Below are positions 2,104 through 38,422 of a DNA stretch of 64,000 nucleotides, one piece after another (the first letter of the stretch is position 1; each line of letters begins with the position of its first letter). The translations under genes and the position numbers were made by a program. The notes below the pieces were generated by a model. It was not told the origin of the DNA and ran no database searches. It saw only the letters and a list, made by a program, of their open reading frames with translations. The stretch is from Vicinamibacteria bacterium (GTDB lineage: Bacteria > Acidobacteriota > Vicinamibacteria > Marinacidobacterales > Marinacidobacteraceae). The stretch lies in NCBI GenBank assembly GCA_963668695.2, contig CAXXLQ010000004.1:800001-864000 (forward strand), read 5' to 3'.

Positions 2104-3609
2104 ATGCCTTTCGACGTTCTGACTGCCGAAATATCTCATGAGACTAATTCCTTCAATCTTCAGGAGACCGACGAGGAGGCCTTCAGAAACCGCTACGTGT
2201 TGATGGGCTCCGAAGCGATCGGCGAGCGCGGCACAGCGAATACGGAGCTGGCTGGCTTCCTCACAGCCGGTCGAGCACATGGCTGGCAGGTCACGCATGT
2301 ACTCAGTGCGGCTGCCGGGCCAAGCGACAAAGTGACACGGGCGACGTTTGACTGGCTCTGTGACCCGATAATCTCCGCGATCACACAGCACTCATTCGAC
2401 GGACTTCTGCTCGGGCTGCATGGCGCGATGGACCTTGATTTCTGTGAAGATGGCGAGGGTGAGTTGCTTTCGCGCATTCGACGCGTGGTGGGCGAAACAA
2501 TCCCAATTGCCATCACGCTTGACCCACATGCGAATGTCAGCAGCCGGATGTGTGCTCTGGCCAACATCATCGTGTCGTTCAAGACCTACCCTCACATAGA
2601 TATGCACGACACAGGTCATCAGGCCGGTGATATCTTGCACCGAGCGATGGCTGGCGACATCACGCCGTCCACAGTGCGAGTGAGCCGCCCTATGCTGGAG
2701 AAAGTCAATGGCGGGCGTACCGATGTGGGCCCGATGATCGAGCGCATTGCGGCAGCGCGGGCGTATGAGGAACACCCGGATGCGTTCGCTGTGAGCATCA
2801 ACGCCGGTTTCGCCGGTGCTGACGTCACGGAGGTCGGTCCGACGGTGTTGGTGACCGGTCAAGGGGATCATGCGGCGCACACCGCCTTCGCCGAAACTAT
2901 CGCTGATGACATCTGGAACAGACGCCATGAAGTGCTGAACGACTATTTGAGTGTCGAAGAAGCCGCGGCGATTGCCGCCACATACCAGCCTGTCCACGGA
3001 CCACTGGTCATTGCGGACTAGGCAGACAATCCGGGTGCAGGCGGCTACGGCGATTCAACCGATCTGTTGCGAGCGCTGCTTGATGCTGGCGTGGCGGATG
3101 CCTGTTTTGGTCCGATGGTGGATGGTGACGTAGCGCGGCGATTGCATTCTGATGTCGTTGGCACACGCGTTCACATGACTCTGGGTGGCAAGACCGAGCC
3201 ACGCTTCGGTGGAGGGCCACTTGCCCTTGAGGCGGAACTCGTGTCTCTCAGCGAGGGCCGTTTCACTGGCGACGGGCCGATGATCGATGGGCTCACTGGC
3301 AGTTTCTGTCCGAGTGCGGTACTGCGCGTTGGCGGTATTGAGATCCTGGTCGTGACCATCGCCCGCCAAATACTCGACCTGCAGCAATTCAAGGCCTTCG
3401 GCATCGAGCCGGAGAAAAAGTCCGTCGTGGCGCTACGATCGATGCAGCACTTCTGCGCCGCATTCGAACCGATTGCTGGACAGGTGATCGTGTGCGACTG
3501 CGGCGCACTGTGCACCCCACGCTACGACCCGCTGCCCTATCGCAACGTGCCACGACCGATTTTTCCTCTAGATCGGGATATGACCCTCGGTTCTGGATCG
3601 GCTACGTGA
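2104..3609 (+). pseudogene. M81/MlrC-family metallopeptidase with in-frame TAG at 3019-3021
   Basis: SHETNSF, LHGAM, LDPHAN, TYPHID motifs. VIAD*ADNPGAG continues in the same frame into the MlrC C-terminal domain. Confidence 0.9.
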
Positions 3610-4692
3610 AGGCGCCTGCGGAACGCTTCGGGCCTTAACCGCCTTGGCGACGAATGGTGAGGTCATGGCGCGAACGAGCGCGCTGTAGTTGAGCTCGAAC
3701 GTAACTTCGCTGCCAACATGCAGGCGGTAGCCACTGGAGTCTGTGACGAGGTGGTCGCTGCTGGCCCCGAGAACCGTGATCCCGGGTGGCGGAAGGAGGC
3801 CGTATGGGTCTGTGTCCTGGTGCCCGATGGCCAGGATCGCTCGCGGGATGAAGCCCCGGTCGGTGGCGGGCGGCCTTTCCCCGAAGGCCGTCTGTTGTTC
3901 CACGGTGCCCCGTGGCTGAGATGGTTTGACCTTCAGCTCGATCACCTCGGCAACGAGCGTAACGGCATCGGTGTGCAGCCCGTCGAGTGGTGACCGGCGG
4001 AGTGACTCACGGCCAAGGAGAATCGACTCGCCCAGACGGAGATTGTTGATCCGCCCGGTGTCTGAGCAGCCGAGCGCCCACTCGAGGCTGCCGGAGTTGC
4101 CTCCGGAGACGATGCCGAGTGAAAGTCCGAAGCTCGCCTCGATCGAATCGGCCAGCGCCGACAGCTCCGCCATGTTCTTGGCGTCGGGCACCACCCCGCT
4201 GTGACAGGCGAGGTTCGTCCCTATTCCCCTGAGCGCGATGTTCGGGAAACGAAGCGTCTCGCGCACGGTGTTCTCAAGGTCGCCGGGCATGACACCTTCT
4301 CGGAGGTCGCCCAGCTCGACCATCAACACGACTCCGTGGGTCTTGCCGGCCTCTGTCGCAGCGGAGGACAGCGCGCTCAGGACGTCAAGCTCGGTGTTGA
4401 AGCTCGTGTCGCAGTGCCGTACAACCTGGTTCACCTGACTCAGCATCGGAGACCGAATAAGCATCATCGGCGCCGGTACTCGCGAGCAACGCATCGCCTG
4501 GATGTTCTCGATGCGGGAGTCGCCGACCGCGGTTGTGCCCGCGTCGAGCATTGTCTGGGCGATGTCGGGTGAGCCGAGCATCGCTTTCGTGACGCCCGTA
4601 ACTGAGATACTGCGCCGGGCGAGCGATTCAACCAGCGCGCAGGCGTTATGGTGGATCTTGTCGAGGTTGATCTCCAATCGCGGCGCGGTCAT
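3568..4692 (-). CDS. Alanine/ornithine racemase-family PLP-dependent enzyme
   Basis: GVTK (PLP lysine), DSRIENI, MVELGDLREG, SGGNS, NLRLGES, GASSDH motifs. Start overlaps the upstream gene's stop. Confidence 0.9.
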   Translation of the reverse strand: MTAPRLEINLDKIHHNACALVESLARRSISVTGVTKAMLGSPDIAQTMLDAGTTAVGDSRIENIQAMRCSRVPAPMMLIRSPMLSQVNQVVRHCDTSFNTELDVLSALSSAATEAGKTHGVVLMVELGDLREGVMPGDLENTVRETLRFPNIALRGIGTNLACHSGVVPDAKNMAELSALADSIEASFGLSLGIVSGGNSGSLEWALGCSDTGRINNLRLGESILLGRESLRRSPLDGLHTDAVTLVAEVIELKVKPSQPRGTVEQQTAFGERPPATDRGFIPRAILAIGHQDTDPYGLLPPPGITVLGASSDHLVTDSSGYRLHVGSEVTFELNYSALVRAMTSPFVAKAVKARSVPQAPSRSRSRTEGHIPI

Positions 4693-7204: not shown

Positions 7205-8548
7205 TTGGCCGTCTTGGCTCGGGGACTGCGACGGGAGTTGCGTCTCGGCGACGCACTCTTCGTCAACATCGGGACGATCCTCGCGTCGGCGGCCTTCGTG
7301 GTTCCGGCCTACGTCATCGCCTCAACGGGTTCGGCGGGCGGCGCCGCGCTGATCTGGGTGGGAGCCGGAGCGATATCGCTCTGCGGAGCGTTCGCGATCG
7401 CCGAGCTCGCGGCGCTCTATCCGCACACCGGCGGCGAGTACGTCTATCTGGAACGGGCCTACCACCCCCTGGTCGGGTTCCTCTACGGCTGGAGCCTCTT
7501 CGCGGTCATCCAGACCGCCTCGATCGCCGCGGTCGCGGTCGTCTTCGTCGAGTACGGCGCCGAGTTCGTGCCGCTCAGCCCCGTTGCCGCGAAGGCGGCG
7601 GTGGTGGTGCTCATCCTCGGGCTCTCGCTTTGGAACTGCCGGAGCATTCGCGCCTCGGCCAGCACCCAGAACCTGACCACCATCGCCAAGCTGGTGATGG
7701 CGGGGGCGATCGTGGTGCTTTGCGTTTCCTTGGGCGACCAGTCGGTCGAGACCATCTCGCGGGCGCGGCTTCCGGTCGAGGGCTCGTGGGCGGCCCGCTG
7801 GGGCGCCGCCATGGTGGGGGCGCTGTGGGCCTACGACGGCTGGATCAGCATCACCTTCGTGGGCGGGGAGGTAAAAAACCCCCAGCGCTTCCTGCCGCGC
7901 GCCATCTCGCTCAGCCTGTTTCTGCTGATCGGTATCTATCTGCTGCTCAACTTCGCCTATCTGAAGGCGCTGCCGCTTGGGAGCTTCGTCGGGACCGAAA
8001 CCGTCGCGGCTGACGCCGCCGGACAGGCCGGGGGCCGGATCGGGGGTCAACTCGTCTCGCTCGCGGTGATGGTGTCGTGCTTCGCAGCGGCGAACGGCTT
8101 CATCTTCACGGGCGCCCGGGTCTACTACGCGATGGCGCGGGACGGGGCCTTTCTCCGCTCCTTCGCCCGGCTGAATTCGAGGGCGGTCCCGACGAACGCG
8201 ACGCTCGCCCAGGGGCTCTGGGCCGCGGCCATCGCGCTCACCGGCAGCTACGACCAGCTCTTCACCTACGTCGTGGTCGTTTCCTGGCTCTTCTACGGAC
8301 TCGGAAGCGCCGCGGTCTTCGTGCTGCGCTGGAAAAAGCCCGATCTCGAGCGGCCCTACCGGGCCTTCGGGTATCCACTCCTTCCGGCGGTCTTCACGAT
8401 CTTCTCGGCCGTTTTGCTGGTAAACACCCTCATCACGGACCCGCGCGACGCCCTGATCGGTCTGGGAATCACCGCGGCGGGCATTCCCGTATACCTTTAC
8501 TTCCGCAGGCAAAACGCGGGGCGCCCGGAAACGGACACCGCCGCGTAG
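7205..8548 (+). CDS. APC-family amino acid permease
   Basis: About 12 hydrophobic segments; AELAALYPHTGGEYVYL, WAYDGW, EVKNPQR, ARVYYAMARDG. Confidence 0.93.
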   Translation: MAVLARGLRRELRLGDALFVNIGTILASAAFVVPAYVIASTGSAGGAALIWVGAGAISLCGAFAIAELAALYPHTGGEYVYLERAYHPLVGFLYGWSLFAVIQTASIAAVAVVFVEYGAEFVPLSPVAAKAAVVVLILGLSLWNCRSIRASASTQNLTTIAKLVMAGAIVVLCVSLGDQSVETISRARLPVEGSWAARWGAAMVGALWAYDGWISITFVGGEVKNPQRFLPRAISLSLFLLIGIYLLLNFAYLKALPLGSFVGTETVAADAAGQAGGRIGGQLVSLAVMVSCFAAANGFIFTGARVYYAMARDGAFLRSFARLNSRAVPTNATLAQGLWAAAIALTGSYDQLFTYVVVVSWLFYGLGSAAVFVLRWKKPDLERPYRAFGYPLLPAVFTIFSAVLLVNTLITDPRDALIGLGITAAGIPVYLYFRRQNAGRPETDTAA

Positions 8549-8582
8549 CCGCCGGAACCCGTCCGGCACGGAGGACCACCCC

Positions 8583-11500
8583 ATGCGCAACCCGATGCGG
8601 CTTCAGGCCGCTCTCGCCCTTTCTTTCGCCCTCGGGCTCCCCGCGGCCGCGCTGGCCCAGCCGGCGCCCGACGAGCTCGGCGGCCTCAAATTCCGCCACA
8701 TCGGGCCCGTGGGCAACCGAGCCCTCTCGGTCGCCGGCATCCCGGGCAACCCCGACATCTACTACGCCGGGGCGGCCACCGGAGGAATCTGGAAGACCGA
8801 AGACGGGGGCATCAAGTGGCGCCCGGTGTTCGACGACCAGGATGTCCACGCCATCGGCGCGCTGGCCGTCTCCGAGTCCGACCCCAACATCGTGTGGGCC
8901 GGGACCGGCGAGACCTTCATCCGGGCCAACGTCTCCATCGGCATCGGAGTGTTCAAGTCCACCGACGCCGGCGAGACCTGGAAGCACATGGGCCTCGACG
9001 CGACCGCGCGGATCGGCCGGATCATCATCCATCCGACGAACCCGGACATCGTTTACGCGGCGTCGCTGGGACACGCCTACACCCCCCAGCCGGAGCGCGG
9101 CATCTACCGGACCATGGACGGGGGCGAGACCTGGGAACACGTCCTGTTCGTGGACGAAAACACCGGCGCCTCGGACCTGGTGATGGACCCGAACAACCCC
9201 CGGATCCTGTACGCCGGGATGTGGCAGCTCGAGTTGAAGACCTGGACCCGGGTGAGCGGCGGACCCGGAAGCGGCCTCCATATGAGCCGGGACGGCGGCG
9301 GCACCTGGACGAAGCTCGAAGGCAACGGCCTTCCGGAGCTGGAGGTGGGCAAGATCGCGCTTTGCATGAGCAAGTCGGACTCCCGGCGGGTGTTTGCGTT
9401 GATCGAGACGGCGGACGGCGTCTCCTACGCCGGCGAAGAAGCCGAGAGCGGAGAGCTGTGGGCCACGAGCGACGGCGCCAAGACCTGGACGCTCCAGACC
9501 CACAACCGGGACCTCGCGGGCAGAAACGCCTACTACTCCCGCTGCGGGGCGGCGCCGGACGACAAGGACGAGGCCTACTTCCTCACTTCGTCCTTCGCCT
9601 CGACCCTGGATGCCGGCAAGTCGCACCGGGTGCACGGCCGCGATGAGGCGCCGGGCTGGGACCACCACGACATCTGGATCGACCACACCGACGGCGACCG
9701 GATGGCGGTGGCGCACGACGGCGGGGTGTCCATCTCGCGAAACCGGGGCGCCTCGTGGTTCAAGATCCAGTTGCCGCTCGCCCAGATGTACCACGTGACG
9801 GTGGACAACGACATCCCCTACAACGTGCTCGGGAACCGGCAGGACGGCCCCTCCACCCGGGGGCCGAGCCGGGCGTTCACCGGCGGGTTCTTCGGCAGCG
9901 GCATTCCCCGGGGGATGTGGCACGGGGTCGGCGGGGGCGAGAGCGGCTTCGCGACTCCCGATCCGGAGGATCCGAACATCGTCTGGTCGAGCGCTTCCGG
10001 CGCCGGCGCCGCCGGCGGGATCGTGGTCCGCTACGACGAGCGCACCCGGCAGTTCCGCCAGCTCGAGGTCTGGCCGGAAAGCACGATGGGCTGGCCGGCC
10101 CAGGACCTGCGGTACCGGTTCCAGTGGGTCTTCCCGCTACTGATCTCGCCGCACGACCGCAACACCGTCTATGTCGGCAGCCAGCACGTCCACCGGACCA
10201 CCAACGGGGGCCAGAGCTGGGAGGAAGTCAGCCCCGATCTGACCACCAACGACAAGTCCCGCCAGACCATCTCCGGCGGCCTCACCCCGGACAACATCGG
10301 GGTGGAGTTCTGCTGCGTGATCTACGCGATCGACGAGAGCCCGGTTACCGAGGGCGTGATCTGGGCCGGCACCAACGACGGGATGATCCACCTGACCCGG
10401 GACGGCGGCGCCAACTGGACCGATGTGACCGCGAACGTGCCCGACATGCCGGTGGACGGGGTGGTGCGCAACATTGACGCCTCGAAGTGGGAGGCCGGCA
10501 AGGCGTACATGACCGTCGAAGCCCACCAGGTGGGCAACTTCGAGCCGTACGTGTACCGGACCGAAGACTTCGGAGAGTCGTGGACCAGGATCGTCAACGG
10601 CGTGGCGGACAGCCCGCTCAGCTACACCCGGAACGTGCGGGAGGATCCGGTGCGGCCCGGGCTCCTCTACCTCGGGACCGAGAACTTTCTCTACGTGAGC
10701 TTCGACGACGGGGACAACTGGCAGCGGCTCACGGGCGGGCTGCCGCCGAGCCCGATGTACTGGATCACGGTGCAGGAGCACTTCGGCGATCTGGTGGTCG
10801 GGACCTACGGACGCGGCTTCTGGATCATGGACGACATCTCGCCGCTCCAGCAGTGGACCGACGAGGTGGAGGCCGCGAGCGTCCACCTGTTCCAGCCCCG
10901 GGGGGCCTATCGGTTCCATTCCATCACCGCGCCCTTCGCCCAGTTCGACGACTGGTCCGCCGGCGAGAACCCCCCCTACGGCGCCCCGATCAGCTTCTGG
11001 CTGGACGAGGCGACCGAAGATGTTTCCATCGAGATCAAGAGCGCCGGCGGGGAGACGATCCGCACCCTCGAGACGGAGGGAGAAGTCGGCCTGAACCGGA
11101 TGTACTGGGATCTTCGGGAGGAAGCCTCGACCAAGGCGGTACTGCGGACGCAACCCCGCTTCGCCGACTGGGTGGACCTCGACGAGGAGCGGACCCGCGA
11201 GGGGCAGATCGGCCGGATCTCGATCCTCGCTCCGCCCGGTCAGTACACCGTGGCGCTGAAGGTCGGGGACACCGAGCAGACGGCGCCCCTCGAGGTGCGG
11301 AAGGACCCGAAGAGCGAGGGCTCGATGGAGGACATCGCCGCCCAGACCGCGCTGCTCCGCCTGCTACGCGCCGACCTCGAAACGGTGACCGGGATGGTGA
11401 ACGAGATCGAGTGGCTGCGCCGCCAGGTGCTCGATTTGAAGATGGTGGCCGAGGAGGCCGGGCGGGTCGAATCCATCGCCTCGGTGGTGGACGGGCTCGA

Positions 11501-31807: not shown

Positions 31808-33025
31808 ATGCGCCGCTTCAAACCCGGACCGGGCTTCCTGGTCGCCGCCGCCTTCATCGGGCCGGGAACGGTCGTGACGGCCAGCCGCGCAGGCGCCGGC
31901 TACGGAATGACCCTCCTCTGGGCGGTGCTGTTTTCGGTGATCGCCACGGCGGTCCTCCAGACCATGGCGGCGCGGGTCGGTCTCGCCAGCCGGCGCGGCC
32001 TCGCCGAGGCGATCCGCGACAGTCTCCGGAACCCGGTCATCCGGGTGGCCGCCCTGGGCCTCATCGCGTTCACCATCCTGATCGGGAACGCCGCCTTCCA
32101 GACCGGCAACCTGCTCGGCGCCTCGCTGGGCCTCAGCCTGCTCACCGGGTTGCCGGCGGGCCTCCTGGTCCTGATCGTCGGGTCCCTCGCGGGCGCCCTG
32201 CTGATGACGGGCGTTTACAAGGTCATCCAGAACGCGCTGGTGTTCCTCGTGGGGCTGATGAGCGTGGTGTTCTTCCTGATCGCGATCCTGACCGCGCCGA
32301 GCCTCGGCGAAGTGCTGAGCGGCCTCTTCGTGCCGCGGATCCCGCCGGGAGCCCTGCTGACCGTGATGGCGCTGATCGGCACCACCGTCGTTTCCTACAA
32401 CCTCTTCCTCCACACCAGCGCCAGCCTCGAACGCTGGCCGGATGCGGAACGGAATGACGAGAACATCCGGGAGAGCCGAAACGACACCCTGTTTGCGGTG
32501 GCGCTCGGAGGGCTCATCACCGCGGCGGTGGTAGTGGCCGCCTCCCCGCTACTCGGGCAGGGCGCCGACGCCGCGGATGCCGCCACGGTCGCGGCGCGGC
32601 TCGAACCGCTCCTCGGACGGGCCGCGCCCGTGTTCTTCGGCATCGGGCTGTTTGCCGCCGGACTCACCTCGGCGATCACCGCGCCCCTCGCCGCGGCCTA
32701 CGCCGCGGGCGGCGCGCTGGGCTGGGGAGCCGACCTGAAGAGCGGCCGGATCCGCCTGCTGTGGGGCTTCGTCCTGCTGACCGGGATGTTCTGCGGCATC
32801 TTCCTCGGCGCCTCCCCCTACCAGATCATCCTGCTCGCGCAGGCCGGCAACGGGGTGGTCCTTCCGCTCGCCCTGATCCTGCTGCTCGTCGTGGTGAACC
32901 GGACCGCGATCATGGGCAAGTACCGGAACTCGCTCGTCGCGAACGTCCTCGGAACCCTGGTGGTGGCGGTGATCTCGGGGCTCGCGCTGGTCCAGCTCGC
33001 CCGGGTCCTCGGGTTGGCCGGATAG
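31808..33025 (+). CDS. Nramp-family (YcsG-like) transporter
   Basis: GPGFLVAAAFIGPGTV, ALIGTTVVSYNLFLH, AAGLTSAITAP. Confidence 0.9.
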   Translation: MRRFKPGPGFLVAAAFIGPGTVVTASRAGAGYGMTLLWAVLFSVIATAVLQTMAARVGLASRRGLAEAIRDSLRNPVIRVAALGLIAFTILIGNAAFQTGNLLGASLGLSLLTGLPAGLLVLIVGSLAGALLMTGVYKVIQNALVFLVGLMSVVFFLIAILTAPSLGEVLSGLFVPRIPPGALLTVMALIGTTVVSYNLFLHTSASLERWPDAERNDENIRESRNDTLFAVALGGLITAAVVVAASPLLGQGADAADAATVAARLEPLLGRAAPVFFGIGLFAAGLTSAITAPLAAAYAAGGALGWGADLKSGRIRLLWGFVLLTGMFCGIFLGASPYQIILLAQAGNGVVLPLALILLLVVVNRTAIMGKYRNSLVANVLGTLVVAVISGLALVQLARVLGLAG

Positions 33026-33035
33026 CACCCCGACA

Positions 33036-33085
33036 GGGGACCGCCGGCCAGTCCTCCCGGTGGGGGCCTTCAGGTCGGCATCGCG
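33036..33085. repeat. REP-like palindrome carrying the 19-nt micro-insert
   Basis: GGGACCGCCGG[CCAGTCCTCCCGGTGGGGG]CCTTCAGGTCGGCATCGC. Confidence 0.8.
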
Positions 33086-33112
33086 GCCGGAGGCCGCGAA
33101 ACGCACTGCGCC

Positions 33113-33349
33113 ATCGCACCCAGTTCACGACAGCAGATCCGGCTATCGCACCCAGTTCACGACAGCAGGGGCCTTCAGGTCGGCACCCAGTTCACGACAG
33201 CAGATCCGGTTATCGCACCCAGTTCACGACAGCAGATCCGGTTATCGCACCCAGTTCACGACAGCGATCCGGTTATCGCACCCAGTTCACGACAGATCCG
33301 GTTATCGCACCCAGTTCACGACAGCAGATCCGGTTATCGCACCCAGTTC
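33113..33349 (+). repeat. 32-bp tandem repeat, 8 units (last one partial)
   Basis: Unit ATCGCACCCAGTTCACGACAGCAGATCCGGTT; two units have short deletions; one junction is replaced by REP-derived sequence. Confidence 0.95.
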
Positions 33350-33553
33350 GATCCAACCGGCGCACCTATCGCCCCCAGCTCCGATCAAGCTCGATCCACT
33401 CGAATCCTGTATGAACGCGAGCTGCCGGCAACCGAATCGCCATTACAATCGTAAGTGACACTGTAATATCGACTTAGGTCGACAATGCTCTTCCGATTCG
33501 ATGCCAAAATCGTTGAGAATTCCCGCGCCGCTCCCCGGTAGGCTCGCCTCCCT

Positions 33554-34590
33554 TTGCCGATTCTCGACCTCCGCTCCGAGGAACCTGTTTCCGCACCGAC
33601 GGATCACGACCCGCTGGACGAGACCCCGCCGGGCCTCGACGCGATCCGCGCCTGGATCCGGAAACCGCGCCCGTGGCTGCGAGGCGTGCGGCTCTGGGTG
33701 CGCTGGATCCTTTCCGGGTTTGCAGAGACATACCGGTTCCTGAAACAGCACGCGGGGCCAGCCGCGAAGAAACTGCGCCGGATCGCGACCAGGGAGAGCG
33801 GGCGGGCCGGGCGGCGACCCTGGCCGGCAACGCGGGCCGCGAGATCGGCGGAGCGGTTACCCGAGGAGCGCGCGCCCTCCGGACGTCCGACGGACGGATC
33901 GGAAGCGCCGGCAGGAAGCTCGGGAAACTGGGCGGCGCGGTGCGTCGGTTCGGCGGGCAGTTGAACGAGGGTGGAAACGCGGCCGCCGAAATTTTCGCTG
34001 GGGTGGGCCGCCTGACCCGCGCTCTTCGCGGGAACGACCAAACCGGGCTCGGCCTGCTGGATCCACCCGAGGAACCGGAGCCGAAGGCACCGCGACCGGC
34101 CCCACGAACCCTCCGGCAATCCCCGGCGCGGAGGCTGCCGAGGCCGGCGAAGGAGGAGCAGACACCGCGCCCGCCTGCCCCGGAAGCCGCCCCGGAGGCA
34201 CTCGACGAGGCTCCCGCGCCGTCCCCGAGCCTCAGCCCCCCGCCCACCGCCGCTCCTGTGTGGGAAGAGCGTCTGGTCGGACTGCCCCGGGTCTTCATTC
34301 CCCAGATCAAAGCGCTCGGGGAACGGCCCCGAAGCGATGTTCTCTGGCCCCTCATCTTCGAAATCTGCGGCTGGCGCGAATGGACCACCCCCGCCGAACT
34401 CGCGCGCTGGTTCTCCATGCACCACCGAAGCCTCGTCAAGCGCCACCTCGGCCCGATGACGAAGGAAGGCCTGCTGGAGCGCCGCTTTCCGGATCGCCCG
34501 AACAGTCCCAGGCAGGCGTACCGCGCCCGCCGGGACGGTGCGCCGACCGCGGATTCGGAGAAATCCCGAACCCCAGGCTCCGGCCCGTAG
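33554..34590 (+). CDS. Hypothetical protein: amphipathic/Gly-rich helices, Pro-rich linker, C-terminal wHTH (Fic-C-terminal-like); apparent frameshift ~33792
   Basis: Adding one G to ACCAGGGAGAG joins ORF 33554 to ORF 33673-34590. C-terminus TTPAELARWF...KRHLGPMTKEGLLERRFPDRPNSPRQAY. Confidence 0.6.
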
Positions 34591-34636
34591 CCGTCGCCCG
34601 AAATCTTTGGCAACCCTGAGCGTGGTGACCTGACAG

Positions 34637-35572
34637 GTGCCGCTGCTTCCGTCCCGTCACCTCGACACGGTGGTCCTCTTCGAGGGGTATCGGGAAGGAC
34701 GGTTCCGCTACGCGGCAACCGGTTTCTTCTGCCGCCATCGCTTCGGTGGGGAGGAGCCGCACGAAGAACTGTTCCTGGTGACCAGCGCGCGGAACGTCCG
34801 GGAGGCACTTGGCCACACCCTCCTGGTGAGTCGCCGCCGCCGAACCCAGCGCGTCCTGTTGAACGACGCGACCGGCCAGGGCGGCCTCGGGCGGGGGCCC
34901 TGGATTTCCGACCCCGAAAGCGACCTCGCGGCACTACCGCTGAACCCGGAGCACCTCGCTGCGACGAAGTTGCGCTTCCGAGCCCTGGGCACCAGCGCCA
35001 GTGCTCTGACCATGGCCGCGATGAGGAAACGACGCATCGGCGAGGGCGACGACGTGGTGGTGATTGGATTCGCACCCGAGTTGGCGGGCTTGCACCCGGT
35101 GCCGCTGGTCCGCCGGGGGATCGTTGCGCGCATTCAGGACTGCTACCGCGGACTGTCCAAAACGTTCTTGGTGGAGGCCACCACGTTTGCCGGCAATCGG
35201 GGCAGCCCCGTGGTGATGAAGCCGGACCGCGGGGCGGATGACCGGGCCTGGAACGATCCCGCAGGAAAGTTGATCGGGATCGTCAGCGAATCCGTGCCGA
35301 ATCCGTTGGGACCGCTCGAACACGGGACCGATGGCCGAACGGTGCTGATCCAGGTGAACACCGGACTCGTCCGCGTGGTTCCGGTGGACGCGCTCCTGGA
35401 TCTTCTGGAGAAGGCCGATCCCCAACGCCACGCCTCACCCCAAGGCGCCTCGTTCCGACGCACCCCTCCCACTGACGCGCTTCTGGATCTTCTGGAGAAG
35501 GCCGATCCCCAACGTCACGCCTCACCCCAAGGCGCCTCGTCCCGACGCACCCCTCCCACTACCGAAGACTGA
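34637..35572 (+). CDS. Trypsin-like serine protease homolog, catalytic His and Ser substituted
   Basis: ATGFF, LFLVTSARNV, SDLA, TFAGNRGSPV, KLIGIV. Confidence 0.82.
   Translation: MPLLPSRHLDTVVLFEGYREGRFRYAATGFFCRHRFGGEEPHEELFLVTSARNVREALGHTLLVSRRRRTQRVLLNDATGQGGLGRGPWISDPESDLAALPLNPEHLAATKLRFRALGTSASALTMAAMRKRRIGEGDDVVVIGFAPELAGLHPVPLVRRGIVARIQDCYRGLSKTFLVEATTFAGNRGSPVVMKPDRGADDRAWNDPAGKLIGIVSESVPNPLGPLEHGTDGRTVLIQVNTGLVRVVPVDALLDLLEKADPQRHASPQGASFRRTPPTDALLDLLEKADPQRHASPQGASSRRTPPTTED
35387..35560 (+). repeat. 87-bp in-frame tandem duplication
   Basis: DALLDLLEKADPQRHASPQGAS(F/S)RRTPPT x2. Confidence 0.95.
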
Positions 35573-35577
35573 ACGTC

Positions 35578-36429
35578 GTGCCGCGGACTTGCCGGCTCTA
35601 CCTCGACACGGTGGTCACCCTCCGAGGCGTCGAGCAGAACGGCCGAAGTCGCTGGATAGGTACCGGTTTCTTCTGCCGGGCTTTCCGGTCGTACTGGCCA
35701 ACGCGCGAACTGCTCTTCCTGGTCACGAATGCCCATGTGGTCTGCCAGGGCTTCGAGCACATCAACGTCGTGGTCCCTCCCCGGGAGGGAGATCGGGCGG
35801 TGACGTACTCGGTGACCGGCAAGATCGGTCTTGGACCGAGCAAGTGGGAGGTGGACGGGCACCATGACCTCGCCGTCTTGCTACTGGACCCCGAGCACCT
35901 CCCGGAAGACGAAATTCGCGACCGCACCTTCCAGGTCGAGGCCGACGCGCTCACGATCCGGGAGCTCCGGCGGCTCCGGATCGGAGAGGGCGATGAGGCG
36001 CTTCTCGTCGGATTCGCCTTTCCCCAACACGACCCCGTCGAGGACTACCCGGCAGTCCGCCTGGCGACGATCGTCCGCGTGCCGAAGCGGGCGAGCTGCC
36101 GGAGATCCTTCCTGCTGGAGGGCACCACGTTTCCCGGAAACAGCGGTAGCCCGGTCATCGTGAGGCCGGGCCGGGACGCTTGCGGCGACGACCGTGCCGA
36201 CGGTAGCGGGAAGTTGATCGGCATCATCCGCGCGGGGGGAAACGCGGCGACGACGATCCGATCCGACAAGCAAGGCGTTCCCGTTGAAGTCCGCGAGGGC
36301 GTGGGACAGATCCACATCGTCCCGGTGGATGTGCTGCGACGCAGCATCAACGTGATCATCCGCAACGTTTTGCTCGCAGAAACCTTCGGCCCGATGTTCC
36401 GGAAGGTGAGAAGATGGGTGAAATCATGA
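35578..36429 (+). CDS. Trypsin-like serine protease (intact triad)
   Basis: GTGFF, LVTNAHVV, HDLAVL, TFPGNSGSPV. Confidence 0.9.
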   Translation: MPRTCRLYLDTVVTLRGVEQNGRSRWIGTGFFCRAFRSYWPTRELLFLVTNAHVVCQGFEHINVVVPPREGDRAVTYSVTGKIGLGPSKWEVDGHHDLAVLLLDPEHLPEDEIRDRTFQVEADALTIRELRRLRIGEGDEALLVGFAFPQHDPVEDYPAVRLATIVRVPKRASCRRSFLLEGTTFPGNSGSPVIVRPGRDACGDDRADGSGKLIGIIRAGGNAATTIRSDKQGVPVEVREGVGQIHIVPVDVLRRSINVIIRNVLLAETFGPMFRKVRRWVKS

Positions 36430-36662
36430 CGCGCTCAGTCCAAGCCGTCCTCGCCGAGGCCCTGCGGCTCGATCTCCAGGCTCGCGCCGAATTGGCGGCA
36501 GAGTTGCTCGGAAGTATCGAGGGGCCGTCCGATCCGGGCGCTGGGGCGGCCTGGGACGCTGAAGTCAGACGCCGCGTCGCGGCGATCGAAGCTGGAACCG
36601 AGAATCTTGAGCCTTGGGAGGAAGTGCGGCGCCGGATTGAGCGCGAGATCCTCAACCGGTGA
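36426..36662 (+). CDS. Addiction-module antitoxin (TIGR02574-like)
   Basis: EALRL..ARAELAAELLGSI...AWDAEVRRR...PWEEV; ATGA overlap with the protease stop. Confidence 0.88.
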   Translation: MTRSVQAVLAEALRLDLQARAELAAELLGSIEGPSDPGAGAAWDAEVRRRVAAIEAGTENLEPWEEVRRRIEREILNR

Positions 36663-36954
36663 AGGTCCGCATCGCGGCATCCGCAACCGCGGAGTTCGGT
36701 GAGGCCGTCAGGTGGTACGAGGACACAAGGCAGGGGCTGGGAGCCGCTTTCCTCGATGCCGTCAGTGCGGTCCTTTCCCGCATTGAAGAACACCCCAACA
36801 TCGGGGCGCCGTTCGCGGAGGGGCATCCCATCCGTAGAGTCCTGGTCGTCGGTTTCCCTACCAGGTCGTCCATGCGGTCAGGCCCACGGAACTAGTCGTG
36901 GTGGAGATCGCGCACCTGAGGCGGCGACCGAAGTACTGGGTGGGTCGGGACTAG
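36659..36954 (+). pseudogene. RelE/ParE-family toxin, frameshift ~36857
   Basis: EAVRWYE..GLG..F; one extra C in TTCCCTAC restores FPYQVVHAV...IAHLRRRPKYW*. Confidence 0.85.
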
Positions 36955-37033
36955 TCCTCGCCCCGGTCGTCTCTCGCTCAGCGCCCCGCGTCGCTCAGGT
37001 CGCGGAACGGAAGACGACACGATCGGGGCCTAG

Positions 37034-37247
37034 CAGCCTGTGGATAAAGTGGTGTGAGCGCCGAGAGCGGCCAGTCCTCCCGGTGGGGGCGAGGCGCCCG
37101 GCTGACAAGGCGCGCGAGGGAGGAGCCCCCACCGGGAGAACTGGCCCGTGTATTTCGACCGAAGCGCAACGATGAGCGACGCGAAGCGGAGTGTTTCAGC
37201 CGGGATGCATCGCCGGTCGAACGCCGCATGACTTTGTCCACAGGCTG
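37034..37247 (+). mobile_element. MITE copy 1
   Basis: TIRs CAGCCTGTGGATAAAGT / ACTTTGTCCACAGGCTG; CTAG on both sides. Confidence 0.9.
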
Positions 37248-37279
37248 CTAGCGATCCCTGTTGAGGATGCGACCCTCAT

Positions 37280-37318
37280 TGCTGCCGTTTCGGTAGTCGT
37301 TCTACCGAAACGGCAGCA
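37280..37318. other. Perfect 17-bp hairpin
   Basis: TGCTGCCGTTTCGGTAG-TCGTT-CTACCGAAACGGCAGCA between convergent genes; possibly a terminator. Confidence 0.7.
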
Positions 37319-37388
37319 GAAATGGCTTTTGTGATTCAGCAAGCGCCTTGCTCATCGTTCACCCCAAGTTCTACTGGCCTCCGGCGGA

Positions 37389-37414
37389 ATGCCGGTCTGA
37401 AGACCGGCGGTCCC
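37389..37414. repeat. REP-like palindrome (empty form)
   Basis: ATGCCGGTCTGAAGACCGGCGGTCCC. Confidence 0.75.
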
Positions 37415-37453
37415 TTGCCAGGCCCCCGCAGCGGCAGCTCGCCGCGCAGTCCC

Positions 37454-38422
37454 CTACGGCAGTTCGCCGTTCAGCTCCATGTACACCCGGCGGAGCGCCA
37501 TCCCCCGCTGACTTTCCCGTAGCGACCAGGTCTCGAGGTCCCCGAAGTCGGCCTGGGCATCGGCTTCCTCCGCACTCAACCCCAGGTGGTGGAGGCGGGT
37601 GGACTCGGAGATCACCGTCTCGAGCGCCTCGATGGCGACTCCCAGTTCCTCCCGCAGCATCTCCGGGCTGTCCACGAAGCCGTGCCCCGGAATGTTCACC
37701 CGGGCGTTCAGCTCCTGCGCCCGCCGCAGCATGTCCACCCACTCGGTCGGATACGCCGAACGCATCGCCGGGTACACCCGGTGGAGATATGCCTCGGTCA
37801 GGAAGAGCACGCTCTCCTCCGGCAGATGGACCACCAGGTCGCCGCCGGTGTGGGCTCTCCCCAGGAAGAGCACCTCGATCGCGCGCCCACCGAGCGTGAG
37901 ATCCAAGCGGTCGGAGATCACCGTTTGGGGCATCGGGATCTCCGGAATCCGCTCGCGGATCCCCTCCATCGCCGCCACCGAGTTCTCATGCACGATGAAC
38001 TCGACCCCCTCCGGAAACGCCGCGTTCCCCGCCGTGTGGTCCCCGTGGTCCGAAGAGATCACGACGTGGGTGATGGGCTGGTCGGTGATCTTCCCGATCT
38101 CCTCCACCATCCGGGCGGTCTCCTCGAAGCTGCCCTGCCCGTCGGCGACCAGCACACCCTCGTCGGTGATCACGAACATGCTCACGGTGGTGAAGAACTC
38201 TTCGCCGGCGGCCCGGAGCTGCTCGTAGGAATACACGCCGGGCGCGAGTTCCTGGACCCGGGGGAAATCCGCTTCGGTGAGCCCGCGCTTGAAGGGGTCG
38301 GCGGTGCGGGCCGGAACCTCGGATCCCTCGGGTTCGGGGTCCGGCGCCGGGGCGGGTTCCGGGGCGCCGCAGTTGGCGAGCCCGAAAGCCAACAACGAGA
38401 CCTTGAGCAGGTTCCGGAACAT
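37454..38422 (-). CDS. MBL-fold metallo-hydrolase, probable lipoprotein
   Basis: SSDHGDHTAGN, GRAHTGGD, IPGHG; LANC lipobox-like sequence. Confidence 0.87.
   Translation of the reverse strand: MFRNLLKVSLLAFGLANCGAPEPAPAPDPEPEGSEVPARTADPFKRGLTEADFPRVQELAPGVYSYEQLRAAGEEFFTTVSMFVITDEGVLVADGQGSFEETARMVEEIGKITDQPITHVVISSDHGDHTAGNAAFPEGVEFIVHENSVAAMEGIRERIPEIPMPQTVISDRLDLTLGGRAIEVLFLGRAHTGGDLVVHLPEESVLFLTEAYLHRVYPAMRSAYPTEWVDMLRRAQELNARVNIPGHGFVDSPEMLREELGVAIEALETVISESTRLHHLGLSAEEADAQADFGDLETWSLRESQRGMALRRVYMELNGELP

What the first reader, a model, noticed from the sequence alone, without database searches (positions are those of the whole stretch)
33554..36954. Candidate new system: wHTH protein + dead trypsin + active trypsin + coupled ParE TA
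Seen: five co-directional genes with gaps of 46 and 5 nt, then two 4-nt overlaps. The two proteases are paralogs without signal peptides. The first lacks both catalytic His (TSARNV vs TNAHVV) and Ser (GNRGSP vs GNSGSP; CGG is two changes from any Ser codon) yet keeps an open full-length frame, which argues for a maintained pseudoprotease. The first gene has Trp/Arg amphipathic and Gly-rich helices, a long Pro-rich linker and a wHTH, suiting a membrane-associated cleavable substrate. Established: cytoplasmic trypsin-like domains occur in prokaryotic conflict systems, where proteolysis can release effectors. Inference: sensor pseudoprotease plus protease cleave the linker protein or the antitoxin.
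Basis: partly seen in the sequence, partly recalled or inferred. Interest (0 to 1): 0.75.

Follow-up and report, generated by a model that had tools for sequence, protein, structure and literature searches.

The report
Dead-plus-active protease pair with DNA-binding partner
An accessory gene cassette found in one genus of marine Acidobacteriota pairs an active HtrA-like protease with a conserved, catalytically dead copy and a repeat-associated DNA-binding protein, and it looks like an untested conflict or defence module; the neighbouring toxin-antitoxin pair is a separate, decaying add-on.

Summary
The coordinates, gaps and motifs are right. However, two of the five "genes" are broken in this window. 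G1 lacks one G after 33790 and ParE lacks one G after 36850.

The core observation holds. G2 is a maintained pseudoprotease: the nucleophile Ser is present in 0 of 48 relatives and His in 2 of 48, with dN/dS 0.21-0.63. G3 keeps His and Ser in 51 of 51 relatives.

G1-G2-G3 lie together in 7 of 15 other same-genus genomes. They always sit in a variable hotspot between an Nramp gene and an MBL-fold gene, and empty sites exist.

Both proteases belong to the PADLOC candidate family PDC-S45, which is untested and otherwise single-gene and active. They have a PDZ-less HtrA-like fold. A G2-G3 complex gets only weak support: score 0.60, best control 0.00.

G1 is not protease-specific. It is a multicopy, family-restricted protein with a coiled coil, a linker and a wHTH domain. 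It usually sits behind its own ~32-bp tandem array in defence or mobile islands without proteases.

The toxin-antitoxin pair is not part of the system; it is found in only 2 of 7 orthologous loci and is degenerate.

Verdict: a new variant of a candidate defence family. Its function is inferred, not shown.

The parts
33113..33349 (.). Tandem array, 32-bp period, 7.4 copies (core TATCGCACCCAGTTC), upstream of G1
   Evidence: family D1. The same kind of array lies upstream of 19 of 24 G1-family genes examined.
33441..33469 (+). Palindrome-containing element (CATTACAATCGTAAGTGACACTGTAATAT) between the array and G1. It is a candidate operator or promoter.
   Evidence: Read. Related elements sit upstream of most orthologs and several paralogs. 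Not detected by the sigma-70 consensus scan.
33554..34590 (+). G1: coiled-coil-like N-terminal helices, Pro-rich disordered linker, C-terminal wHTH. Broken here by a 1-nt deletion after 33790 (frame A 33554-33790, frame B 33793-34587).
   Evidence: Pfam Fic-like_C, 27.2 bits. Model of the intact G001 ortholog.
34637..35572 (+). G2: catalytically dead trypsin-like (PDC-S45-family) paralog, 311 aa
35387..35560 (+). 87-bp tandem duplication (2 copies, 97% alike) inside the 3' end of G2. It adds a repeated 29-aa tail.
   Evidence: D2. Also present in G001. Other orthologs are about 266 aa.
35578..36429 (+). G3: active HtrA-like serine protease without a PDZ domain and with a 33-residue C-terminal helix, 283 aa
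36426..36662 (+). Antitoxin (Unstab_antitox / TIGR02574). A separate module, not part of the protease cassette.
   Evidence: (45.7 bits). Found in 2 of 7 orthologous loci.
36659..36954 (+). ParE-like toxin gene, frameshifted after 36850 (frame 1 is 36659-36850, frame 2 is 36853-36951)
   Evidence: Pfam ParE_toxin scores only 15.8 bits on the first piece. An extra G behind 36850 occurs in one X8 contig only.
37030..37251 (.). Nested inverted repeats built of REP-like units (37069-37090 with 37125-37146, and 37030-37050 with 37231-37251). Flanking repeat DNA, not part of the cassette.
   Evidence: (I3, I5).

Best explanation
The real unit is an accessory cassette of three genes plus an upstream repeat array. 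It is not a five-gene system.

Its parts:
- A 32-bp tandem array and a palindromic element precede G1.
- G1 is a DNA-binding protein with N-terminal coiled-coil-like helices, a disordered Pro-rich linker and a C-terminal wHTH. It belongs to a multicopy, family-restricted group of proteins.
- G2 and G3 are a lineage-specific duplication of a cytoplasmic, PDZ-less, HtrA-like serine protease of the PADLOC candidate family PDC-S45. G3 is active. G2 lost the triad once, before the family diversified, and is kept by selection.

Proposed mechanism (inferred): G2 and G3 assemble into a hetero-oligomer in which the dead subunit regulates or targets the active one. The cassette acts as a conflict module, against phages or mobile elements. 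G1 serves as its DNA-bound regulator and possibly as a substrate.

Shown here: gene order, conserved loss of the triad, purifying selection, accessory and fast-diverging character, and family membership.

Inferred only: complex formation, defence function, and any cleavage event.

In this strain G1 is truncated by a 1-nt deletion, so the cassette may be deregulated or inactive. The ParE/antitoxin pair is an independently acquired, decaying neighbour.
For: Triad and selection:
- G2 family: Ser 0 of 48, His 2 of 48, Asp 25 of 48. G3 family: His 51 of 51, Ser 51 of 51, Asp 50 of 51.
- Pairwise dN/dS: G2 0.21-0.63, G3 0.28-0.97, G1 0.20-0.60.

Synteny:
- G2 and G3 are adjacent in 7 of 15 other same-genus genomes. 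G1 lies directly upstream in all 7.
- By my arithmetic on the coordinates, all intergenic gaps are 55 nt or less.

Accessory character:
- G011 has Nramp directly next to the MBL gene. G009 and G010 have only RecQ between them. G006 keeps a G1 remnant (aa 25-133) with no G2 or G3.
- Other strains carry RecQ, AAA_14-DUF4143, HsdM or IS21 genes at the site.
- Cassette proteins are 44-66% identical where the flanking Nramp is 86-99% identical. G004, for example, has Nramp 98.8% but G2 48.7% and G3 55%.
- G3's closest relative differs from that of G1 and G2. L027-L029 dN is 0.26 in G3 against 0.49 in G2. This points to recombination inside the cassette.

Family:
- G2 and G3 hit PADLOC PDC-S45 at E about 3e-12.
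- 142 of 143 members of alignment A9 (the two window proteins plus 141 distant relatives) hit it. 137 of those 141 distant relatives keep His-Asp-Ser.
- The G3 model has pLDDT 86.3. It is closest to Deg1, DegS and DegP protease domains, E 4e-9.

G2-G3 complex: weak support. Score 0.60, best control 0.00. This mark was reached by 116 of 157 solved complexes and 2 of 215 mismatched pairs, but a score of 0.60 or under by only 18 of those 157 and by both mismatches. The runs agree in at least 77% of contacts, and the partner's pLDDT is at least 73.

G1: wHTH pLDDT above 94. An upstream array is present in 19 of 24 family genes.
Against: - No experiment or expression data bears on function.
- PDC-S45 is itself an untested candidate, predicted by guilt-by-embedding (passages seen in bioRxiv 10.1101/2024.01.29.577857).
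- All eight loci are orthologous, at the same chromosomal site in one genus. Conserved gene order is therefore not independent evidence of functional linkage.
- G1 paralogs (5 loci in this genome, 4-10 matches in others) have no protease beside them.
- 8 of 15 genus genomes have G1 paralogs but no G2 or G3.
- G1 is broken in this strain and in G014, while G2 and G3 stay intact. G1 may therefore be dispensable to the proteases.
- The complex prediction is only 'weak support'.
- G3 has no phage-borne relative in the phage collection.
Confidence: 0.5

Rival explanations
1. Regulator-processing module. G2/G3 is an anti-repressor-type protease whose job is to cut the disordered linker of G1, and perhaps of its paralogs. 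This would release the wHTH from its oligomerising N-terminal part and switch array- or operator-bound repression. It would work like ImmR/ImmA or LexA-type regulated proteolysis rather than as an immune effector.
For: - G1 lies directly upstream of G2/G3 in all 8 loci.
- G1 has a roughly 75-residue disordered Pro-rich linker between the helices and the wHTH.
- A palindromic element and an array precede G1.
- G1 and G2 share nearest relatives in pairwise dN.
Against: - Most G1 paralogs lack any nearby protease. 8 of 15 genus genomes have G1 genes but no G2 or G3.
- G1 is broken in 2 of 8 loci while the proteases remain intact.
- No cleavage site or interaction was tested.
Confidence: 0.2
2. 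The proteases are functionally coupled to the ParE toxin-antitoxin pair, for example by cleaving the antitoxin to release the toxin.
For: A 4-nt overlap joins G3 to the antitoxin, and another joins the antitoxin to ParE, in this window.
Against: - An antitoxin relative is present in only 2 of 7 orthologous loci. ParE is present in only 1 of 7, as a 31-aa stub.
- ParE is frameshifted here and in X4.
- The main strain of X8 and part of X1 diverge at about 36410-36420, so close strains lack the TA.
- In G003 the antitoxin remnant is fused in frame behind G3.
Confidence: 0.04
3. A decaying remnant with no current function. On this view the cassette is a relic of a duplicated protease gene, drifting in a recombination hotspot.
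For: - G1 and ParE are frameshifted here.
- G006 shows a deletion remnant.
- Window against G001 gives G3 dN/dS of 0.97.
- There is an 87-bp duplication in the G2 tail.
Against: - G2 and G3 have open full-length frames in all 8 genomes and in 44-47 database clusters.
- dN/dS is below 1 in all other pairs.
- Many non-catalytic positions of G2 are invariant across 48 sequences.
Confidence: 0.1
4. An ordinary cytoplasmic quality-control or housekeeping protease pair with no role in genetic conflict.
For: HtrA-like fold.
Against: - Present in only 7 of 15 genus genomes, with empty sites.
- No close relative in 400 other genomes of the phylum.
- Island context and fast divergence.
Confidence: 0.06

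Closest known systems
PADLOC PDC-S45 (single-gene 'phage defence candidate', untested)
   Same: G2 and G3 match the PDC-S45 model (E 2.7e-12 and 3.6e-12). 142 of 143 members of alignment A9 (G2, G3 and 141 wider relatives) match it, best 7e-36. Those relatives are stand-alone proteins of about 280 aa with the same conserved N-terminus and no signal peptide.
   Different: PDC-S45 relatives are single and active: 137 of 141 keep His-Asp-Ser. Here the gene is duplicated, one copy is dead in the whole sub-family, and a wHTH gene precedes the pair. The PDC set is predicted only by guilt-by-embedding (passages). The only paper found that names PDC-S45 lists it as a hypothetical system in prophages (PMC12429752, passages).
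HtrA/DegS/DegP (S1C) proteases
   Same: They are the best structural matches of the G3 model: Deg1 3qo6, DegS 4rqz/1soz, DegP 8f0a, E 4e-9 to 1e-8, TM about 0.5. HtrA proteases are allosterically regulated oligomers (recalled).
   Different: G3 has no PDZ domain (Pfam finds only Trypsin_2 and Trypsin) and no signal peptide or TM segment. It has a 33-residue C-terminal helix instead. Sequence similarity to solved HtrA proteins is negligible (E 0.08 or worse).
ImmR/ImmA-type repressor plus anti-repressor protease modules of mobile elements (recalled, not tested)
   Same: A DNA-binding regulator gene sits directly beside a protease gene in an accessory island. The regulator has a cleavable-looking linker.
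   Different: ImmA is a metalloprotease (recalled), whereas these are serine-protease folds. No homology was detected. Most G1 paralogs have no protease.
Retron type XI RT-protease fusions (PADLOC RT-Protease_XI)
   Same: The protease domain is weakly similar: G3 E 3.3e-4, and 87 of 143 A9 members match.
   Different: No reverse transcriptase is present. No Rfam ncRNA is found in 32900-37500.
H-NS/Lsr2/MvaT/Rok-type nucleoid proteins (architecture only, recalled)
   Same: G1 has an N-terminal helical part that is probably oligomerising, a flexible linker and a C-terminal DNA-binding domain. Its copies lie in horizontally acquired islands.
   Different: There is no sequence match to those families; Pfam finds only Fic-like_C. 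G1 genes are tied to specific tandem arrays rather than to AT-rich DNA in general.

Membership tests
Trypsin-like serine protease (Pfam Trypsin_2 PF13365, PA clan) | Pfam score at or above the gathering cut-off (27.6 bits) | tested here: met
   G3 scores 30.2 bits and meets it. G2 scores 25.0 bits, below the cut-off. G2 is placed in the family through its 42% identity to G3.
Trypsin-like serine protease (Pfam Trypsin_2 PF13365, PA clan) | Double beta-barrel chymotrypsin fold | tested here: met
   G3 model has pLDDT 86.3 and pTM 0.86. At least 500 PDB matches at E 0.001 or better, led by HtrA-family protease domains. G2 was not modelled alone.
Trypsin-like serine protease (Pfam Trypsin_2 PF13365, PA clan) | Catalytic His-Asp-Ser triad | tested here: not met
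   Not met by G2: Arg, Asp, Arg in the window; family-wide Ser 0 of 48 and His 2 of 48. Met by G3: His, Asp, Ser; 50 of 51 relatives have all three.
PADLOC PDC-S45 | Match to the PDC-S45 profile | tested here: met
   E 2.7e-12 (G2) and 3.6e-12 (G3), over most of the profile. This library has no curated cut-off.
PADLOC PDC-S45 | Single-gene system | tested here: not met
   A tandem pair plus G1 is conserved in 8 of 8 loci.
PADLOC PDC-S45 | Anti-phage activity | not testable with these tools
   The candidates are described as untested (passages).
HtrA (S1C) | C-terminal PDZ domain(s) | tested here: not met
   No PDZ hit in Pfam at E up to 1. The C-terminus is a single long helix.
HtrA (S1C) | Export signal or periplasmic location | tested here: not met
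   No hydrophobic N-terminal stretch; KD10 in the first 35 residues is 1.04 or less. This is hydropathy only, with no dedicated predictor.
ParE/antitoxin type II TA | Antitoxin domain | tested here: met
   Unstab_antitox 45.7 bits against a cut-off of 23.3. TIGR02574 31.8 bits against 31.9.
ParE/antitoxin type II TA | Intact toxin reading frame matching ParE_toxin | tested here: not met
   The span is 296 nt and the frame changes after 36850. The first piece scores 15.8 bits against a cut-off of 23, and the second piece has no hit.
Type III toxin-antitoxin (repeat array followed by a toxin gene), considered for array plus G1 | Short array of about 34-45-nt repeats transcribed with a downstream endoribonuclease toxin (recalled definition) | tested here: inconclusive
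   An array precedes G1. But G1 is a wHTH protein and not a ToxN-like fold. Arrays reach 34 copies and also lie beside unrelated genes. There is no Rfam match. Transcription was not testable.
G1 family (unnamed, coiled coil + linker + wHTH) | Full-length match including the N-terminal PPGL-AIRAW motif and helices | tested here: met
   Found in 15 of 15 genus genomes, 5 of 9 genomes of other genera in the same family, 0 of 16 in the rest of the order, and 0 of 400 in the phylum sample, where only the wHTH part matched in 5 genomes.

The most novel reading that the evidence does not exclude
A cytoplasmic, PDZ-less HtrA-like protease works as an obligate hetero-oligomer with a dedicated pseudoprotease. 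It is wired to a new class of array-bound DNA-binding proteins. On this reading, G1-type proteins (coiled coil, linker, wHTH) polymerise on their cognate ~32-bp satellite arrays. The G2/G3 complex senses an invader or a stress and cuts the G1 linker, switching the state of the island. Both the pseudoprotease-guided protease and the multicopy 'wHTH plus cognate tandem array' pairs would be previously undescribed kinds of system.
Probability: 0.15. Interest if true: 0.8.

Novelty: new variant of a known kind. Interest (0 to 1): 0.55.

Why it matters
Pseudoenzymes that partner their active paralogs are well known in eukaryotic signalling (recalled). I did not search the literature for a bacterial pseudoprotease-protease pair, so I cannot say whether one is in print. 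Here the dead copy is conserved across 48 diverged sequences beside an always-active copy. This gives a clean natural test case for what a dead HtrA-like subunit contributes.

It also gives the untested PADLOC family PDC-S45 a variant with built-in controls: an active copy, a dead copy, and natural G1-null strains.

Separately, G1-family genes are tied to clade-specific 32-bp tandem arrays. That link points to an unstudied DNA-binding/repeat system in an uncultured marine acidobacterial lineage.

Tried and rejected
- Flanking 23-nt direct repeat as an attachment site: rejected. It is a REP-like element with 1241 matches in the genome.
- My first tblastn used a G1 C-terminal piece translated in the wrong frame. 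This was corrected, and the G1b identities are not used.
- The search for related loci with the 17-row alignment found no stretch conserved enough. A 6-row alignment returned only 3 loci, all already known. The patterns were narrow, so this is a weak negative.
- No close G3 relative in 400 other genomes of the phylum; best E 3.7e-23, single copies.
- No full-length G1 in that sample.
- G3 against phage records: no match. G1 against plasmid records: no match.
- ESM Atlas on the G1 N-terminal part: no usable hit.
- Foldseek on the G1 model: no match at E 0.001 or better, only generic wHTH matches.
- Sigma-70 and terminator consensus scan of 33000-37500: 0 promoters, and terminators at chance level.
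- Rfam on 32900-37500: no match.
- No RNA holder was listed among public runs, so nothing can be said on expression.
- No ParE or antitoxin paralog in the own genome.
- ParE was not read through its break, so the C-terminal piece is called ParE-like from recall only.
As a result, the gene neighbourhoods of the roughly 45 metagenomic G2 and G3 relatives could not be seen. Co-occurrence there rests only on 12 equal 'longest contig' lengths between the G1 and G3 hit lists and on one pair of consecutive locus tags for G2 and G3.


Full report
**What is in the window.** The gaps are 46 and 5 nt, and there are two 4-nt overlaps.

Two of the five are not intact. The span 33554-34590 is 1037 nt. The N-terminal 79 codons are in one frame (33554-33790) and the rest (33793-34587) is in another. 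Both parts have the high third-position G+C of coding DNA. A DNA alignment shows that the window lacks one G present in G001, G008 and G012.

The ParE span 36659-36954 is 296 nt. The frame changes after 36850.

I laid contigs of four public runs on 33400-37000. An extra G behind 33790 is present in X4, X8 and X11. It is absent in X1, which has depth 187 and may be the source sample. An extra G behind 36850 is seen only in one minor X8 contig, and X1 and X4 lack it. Both breaks are therefore strain-level mutations. Near-identical strains carry an intact G1.

**The protease pair.** G2 (34637-35572) and G3 (35578-36429) are 42% identical. Both match Pfam Trypsin_2: G3 at 30.2 bits, G2 at 25.0 bits, just under the 27.6 cut-off.

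I aligned 8 orthologous pairs. I then aligned 48 G2-type and 51 G3-type sequences from the protein collection and counted the catalytic columns:
- G3 type: His 51 of 51, Ser 51 of 51, Asp 50 of 51.
- G2 type, Ser column: 0 of 48 are Ser. The residues are Arg 26, Thr 15, Lys 2, Gly 2 and one each of Leu, Pro and Asn.
- G2 type, His column: 2 of 48.
- G2 type, Asp column: 25 of 48.

Pairwise Nei-Gojobori dN/dS is 0.21-0.63 for G2 and 0.28-0.97 for G3. Codon bias in this G+C-rich genome probably inflates these values.

**Synteny and accessory nature.** G2 and G3 occur as an adjacent pair in 7 of 15 other same-genus genomes. They occur in none of 9 genomes of other genera in the family and none of 16 from the rest of the order. 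No close G3 relative was found in 400 other genomes sampled from the phylum.

In all 7 genomes, G1 lies directly upstream. The site is always the same, between an Nramp gene and an MBL-fold gene. G1 is one intact ORF of about 335-357 aa in 6 of the 7 and is broken in G014.

Genomes without the cassette show the following:
- G011 has an empty site, with Nramp next to MBL.
- G009 and G010 have only a RecQ gene there.
- G006 has RecQ plus a G1 remnant (aa 25-133).

Other occupants of the site in other strains are AAA_14-DUF4143, HsdM and IS21 genes.

The cassette diverges much faster than its flanks. In G004, Nramp is 98.8% identical and the antitoxin 93.6%, but G2 is 48.7% and G3 55%. G3's nearest relative also differs from that of G1 and G2. 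This suggests recombination within the cassette.

Because all loci are orthologous, conserved order alone does not prove functional linkage. Support from metagenomes is indirect. Twelve 'longest contig' lengths are shared between the G1 and G3 hit lists. One G2 and G3 pair has consecutive locus tags.

**Family and fold.** G2 and G3 hit the PADLOC model PDC-S45 at E about 3e-12, and more weakly the protease part of retron type XI fusions.

An exhaustive profile search found 4109 representatives at E 0.001 or better, 637 at 1e-10 or better, and 23 at 1e-30 or better. I aligned 141 of the 150 listed representatives with the window's G3 and G2 to make alignment A9 (143 rows). The 9 rows left out were 4 G3-type hits, 3 G2-type hits and 2 short fragments already seen in earlier calls. 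Of the 141, 137 keep His-Asp-Ser. Of the 143 A9 rows, 142 match PDC-S45. The usual family member is therefore a single, active, stand-alone protein of about 280 aa.

PDC systems are 145 untested candidates chosen by 'guilt-by-embedding' (bioRxiv 10.1101/2024.01.29.577857, passages). The only paper found that names PDC-S45 lists it as a hypothetical system in prophages (PMC12429752, passages).

The G3 model (pLDDT 86.3) has two beta-barrels plus a 33-residue C-terminal helix. It is closest to the protease domains of Deg1, DegS and DegP, at E 4e-9 and TM about 0.5. It has no PDZ domain and no export signal by hydropathy.

A G3+G2 complex prediction gave 'weak support': score 0.60, best control 0.00. 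The mark was reached by 116 of 157 solved complexes and 2 of 215 mismatches. A score of 0.60 or under was reached by only 18 of those 157 and by both mismatches. The runs agree in at least 77% of contacts, and the partner's pLDDT is at least 73.

**G1 is not protease-specific.** The model of the intact G001 ortholog has these parts:
- Helices at 28-36, 40-79, 82-110 and 119-159, at low to moderate confidence.
- A disordered stretch at about 160-235.
- A wHTH at 236-337 with pLDDT above 94.

The wHTH matches Fic-like_C in Pfam (27 bits). It also matches the C-terminus of a Fic protein and MarR-type folds, but only at E 0.008 or worse. The helical part resembles chemoreceptor and designed antiparallel coiled coils (E 8e-6). 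There is no TM segment; maximum KD19 is 0.51.

G1 is multicopy. The own genome has five loci, and five other genus genomes have 7-12 matches each. The family is found in 15 of 15 genus genomes, 5 of 9 genomes of other genera in the family, and 0 of 16 in the rest of the order.

The paralogs sit among MmeI-type restriction enzymes, PIN/Phd and HepT/MNT pairs, a DUF4007-cysteine desulfurase pair, Cas_GSU0053, Mrr, RmuC, Uma2, transposases and recombinases. None has a trypsin-like gene beside it.

**Arrays.** Of 24 G1-family genes examined, 19 have a tandem array with a period of about 32 bp, or a multiple of it, 9-631 bp upstream. In 18 of the 19 the distance is 350 bp or less. Copy number ranges from 1.9 to 34. 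In the window this is the array at 33113-33349.

The 14-16-nt core differs between G1 clades and is shared within them. Clade members are orthologous loci, so this may be co-inheritance.

In other genera of the family, 4 of 8 G1 genes have a core-repeat array upstream, 3 have one just downstream, and 1 has one only far downstream.

A palindrome-containing element lies between the array and G1 in most copies.

The own genome holds 29 such arrays at about 21 loci. Most lie next to ordinary genes. The arrays are therefore a genome-wide satellite family. G1 genes are preferentially placed behind them.

**The toxin-antitoxin pair.** The antitoxin is a clear Unstab_antitox / TIGR02574 member. A relative occurs in only 2 of 7 orthologous loci, and in one of them it is fused behind G3. 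ParE occurs in only 1 of 7, as a 31-aa stub. The main X8 strain and part of X1 diverge at about 36410-36420. The TA is a separate, decaying insertion.

**Reading.** The evidence shows an accessory, fast-diverging cassette of G1, a conserved pseudoprotease and an active PDZ-less HtrA-like protease of a defence-candidate family.

That the two proteases form a hetero-oligomer and act in genetic conflict is inference (confidence 0.5). Whether G1 is regulator, substrate or merely neighbour is open. In this strain G1 is truncated, so the cassette may be deregulated or inactive.

Noticed in passing
window 33113-33349; also G000:C4 122070, 172393, 309449, 422916-424748, 574312-576026, 975840-979026, 1173358-1174469, 2553692-2555870, 3551688, 3734722 and others: A genome-wide family of about 32-bp-period tandem arrays: 29 arrays at about 21 loci, up to 2.9 kb long, with at least 5 core types. 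19 of 24 G1-family wHTH genes sit just downstream of one, and the core differs by G1 clade. They may be cognate binding-site arrays.
   Followed up: partly
window 33045-33067, 37068-37090, 37125-37146: A REP-like 23-nt unit (CGGCCAGTCCTCCCGGTGGGGGC) with 617 forward and 624 reverse matches at up to 3 mismatches in the 4.1-Mb genome. It often forms composite repeats with periods of 53, 71, 90, 148, 167 and 185 bp.
   Followed up: partly
window 35387-35560: An 87-bp in-frame tandem duplication (97% alike) lengthens the C-terminal tail of G2 by 29 aa. It is shared with G001 only. Contig depth doubles there in public runs.
   Followed up: partly
L075 (G000:C4:3497000-3513000), about 8126-10950: An MmeI-type restriction-modification gene next to G1 paralog D is split into at least three pieces by frame changes. 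Its G008 ortholog is one 939-aa ORF. Island genes in this genome seem prone to inactivation.
   Followed up: no
G000 C1:138550-139137 and C4:309449-310036: Identical array size and an identical downstream 444-aa ORF on contigs C1 and C4. C1 may be a duplicate or haplotype of part of C4, which could explain the 9.3% 'contamination' figure.
   Followed up: no
L025 (G003:C97) 2619-3722: In G003 the G3 reading frame runs on without a stop into a degraded antitoxin-like sequence, giving 367 codons.
   Followed up: no
G000:C4 3280994-3283455: A run of repeats with unit GGTCCATCCCCGCGCGTGCGGGGGAAGC at about 61-bp spacing. It looks like a CRISPR array. Not examined.
   Followed up: no
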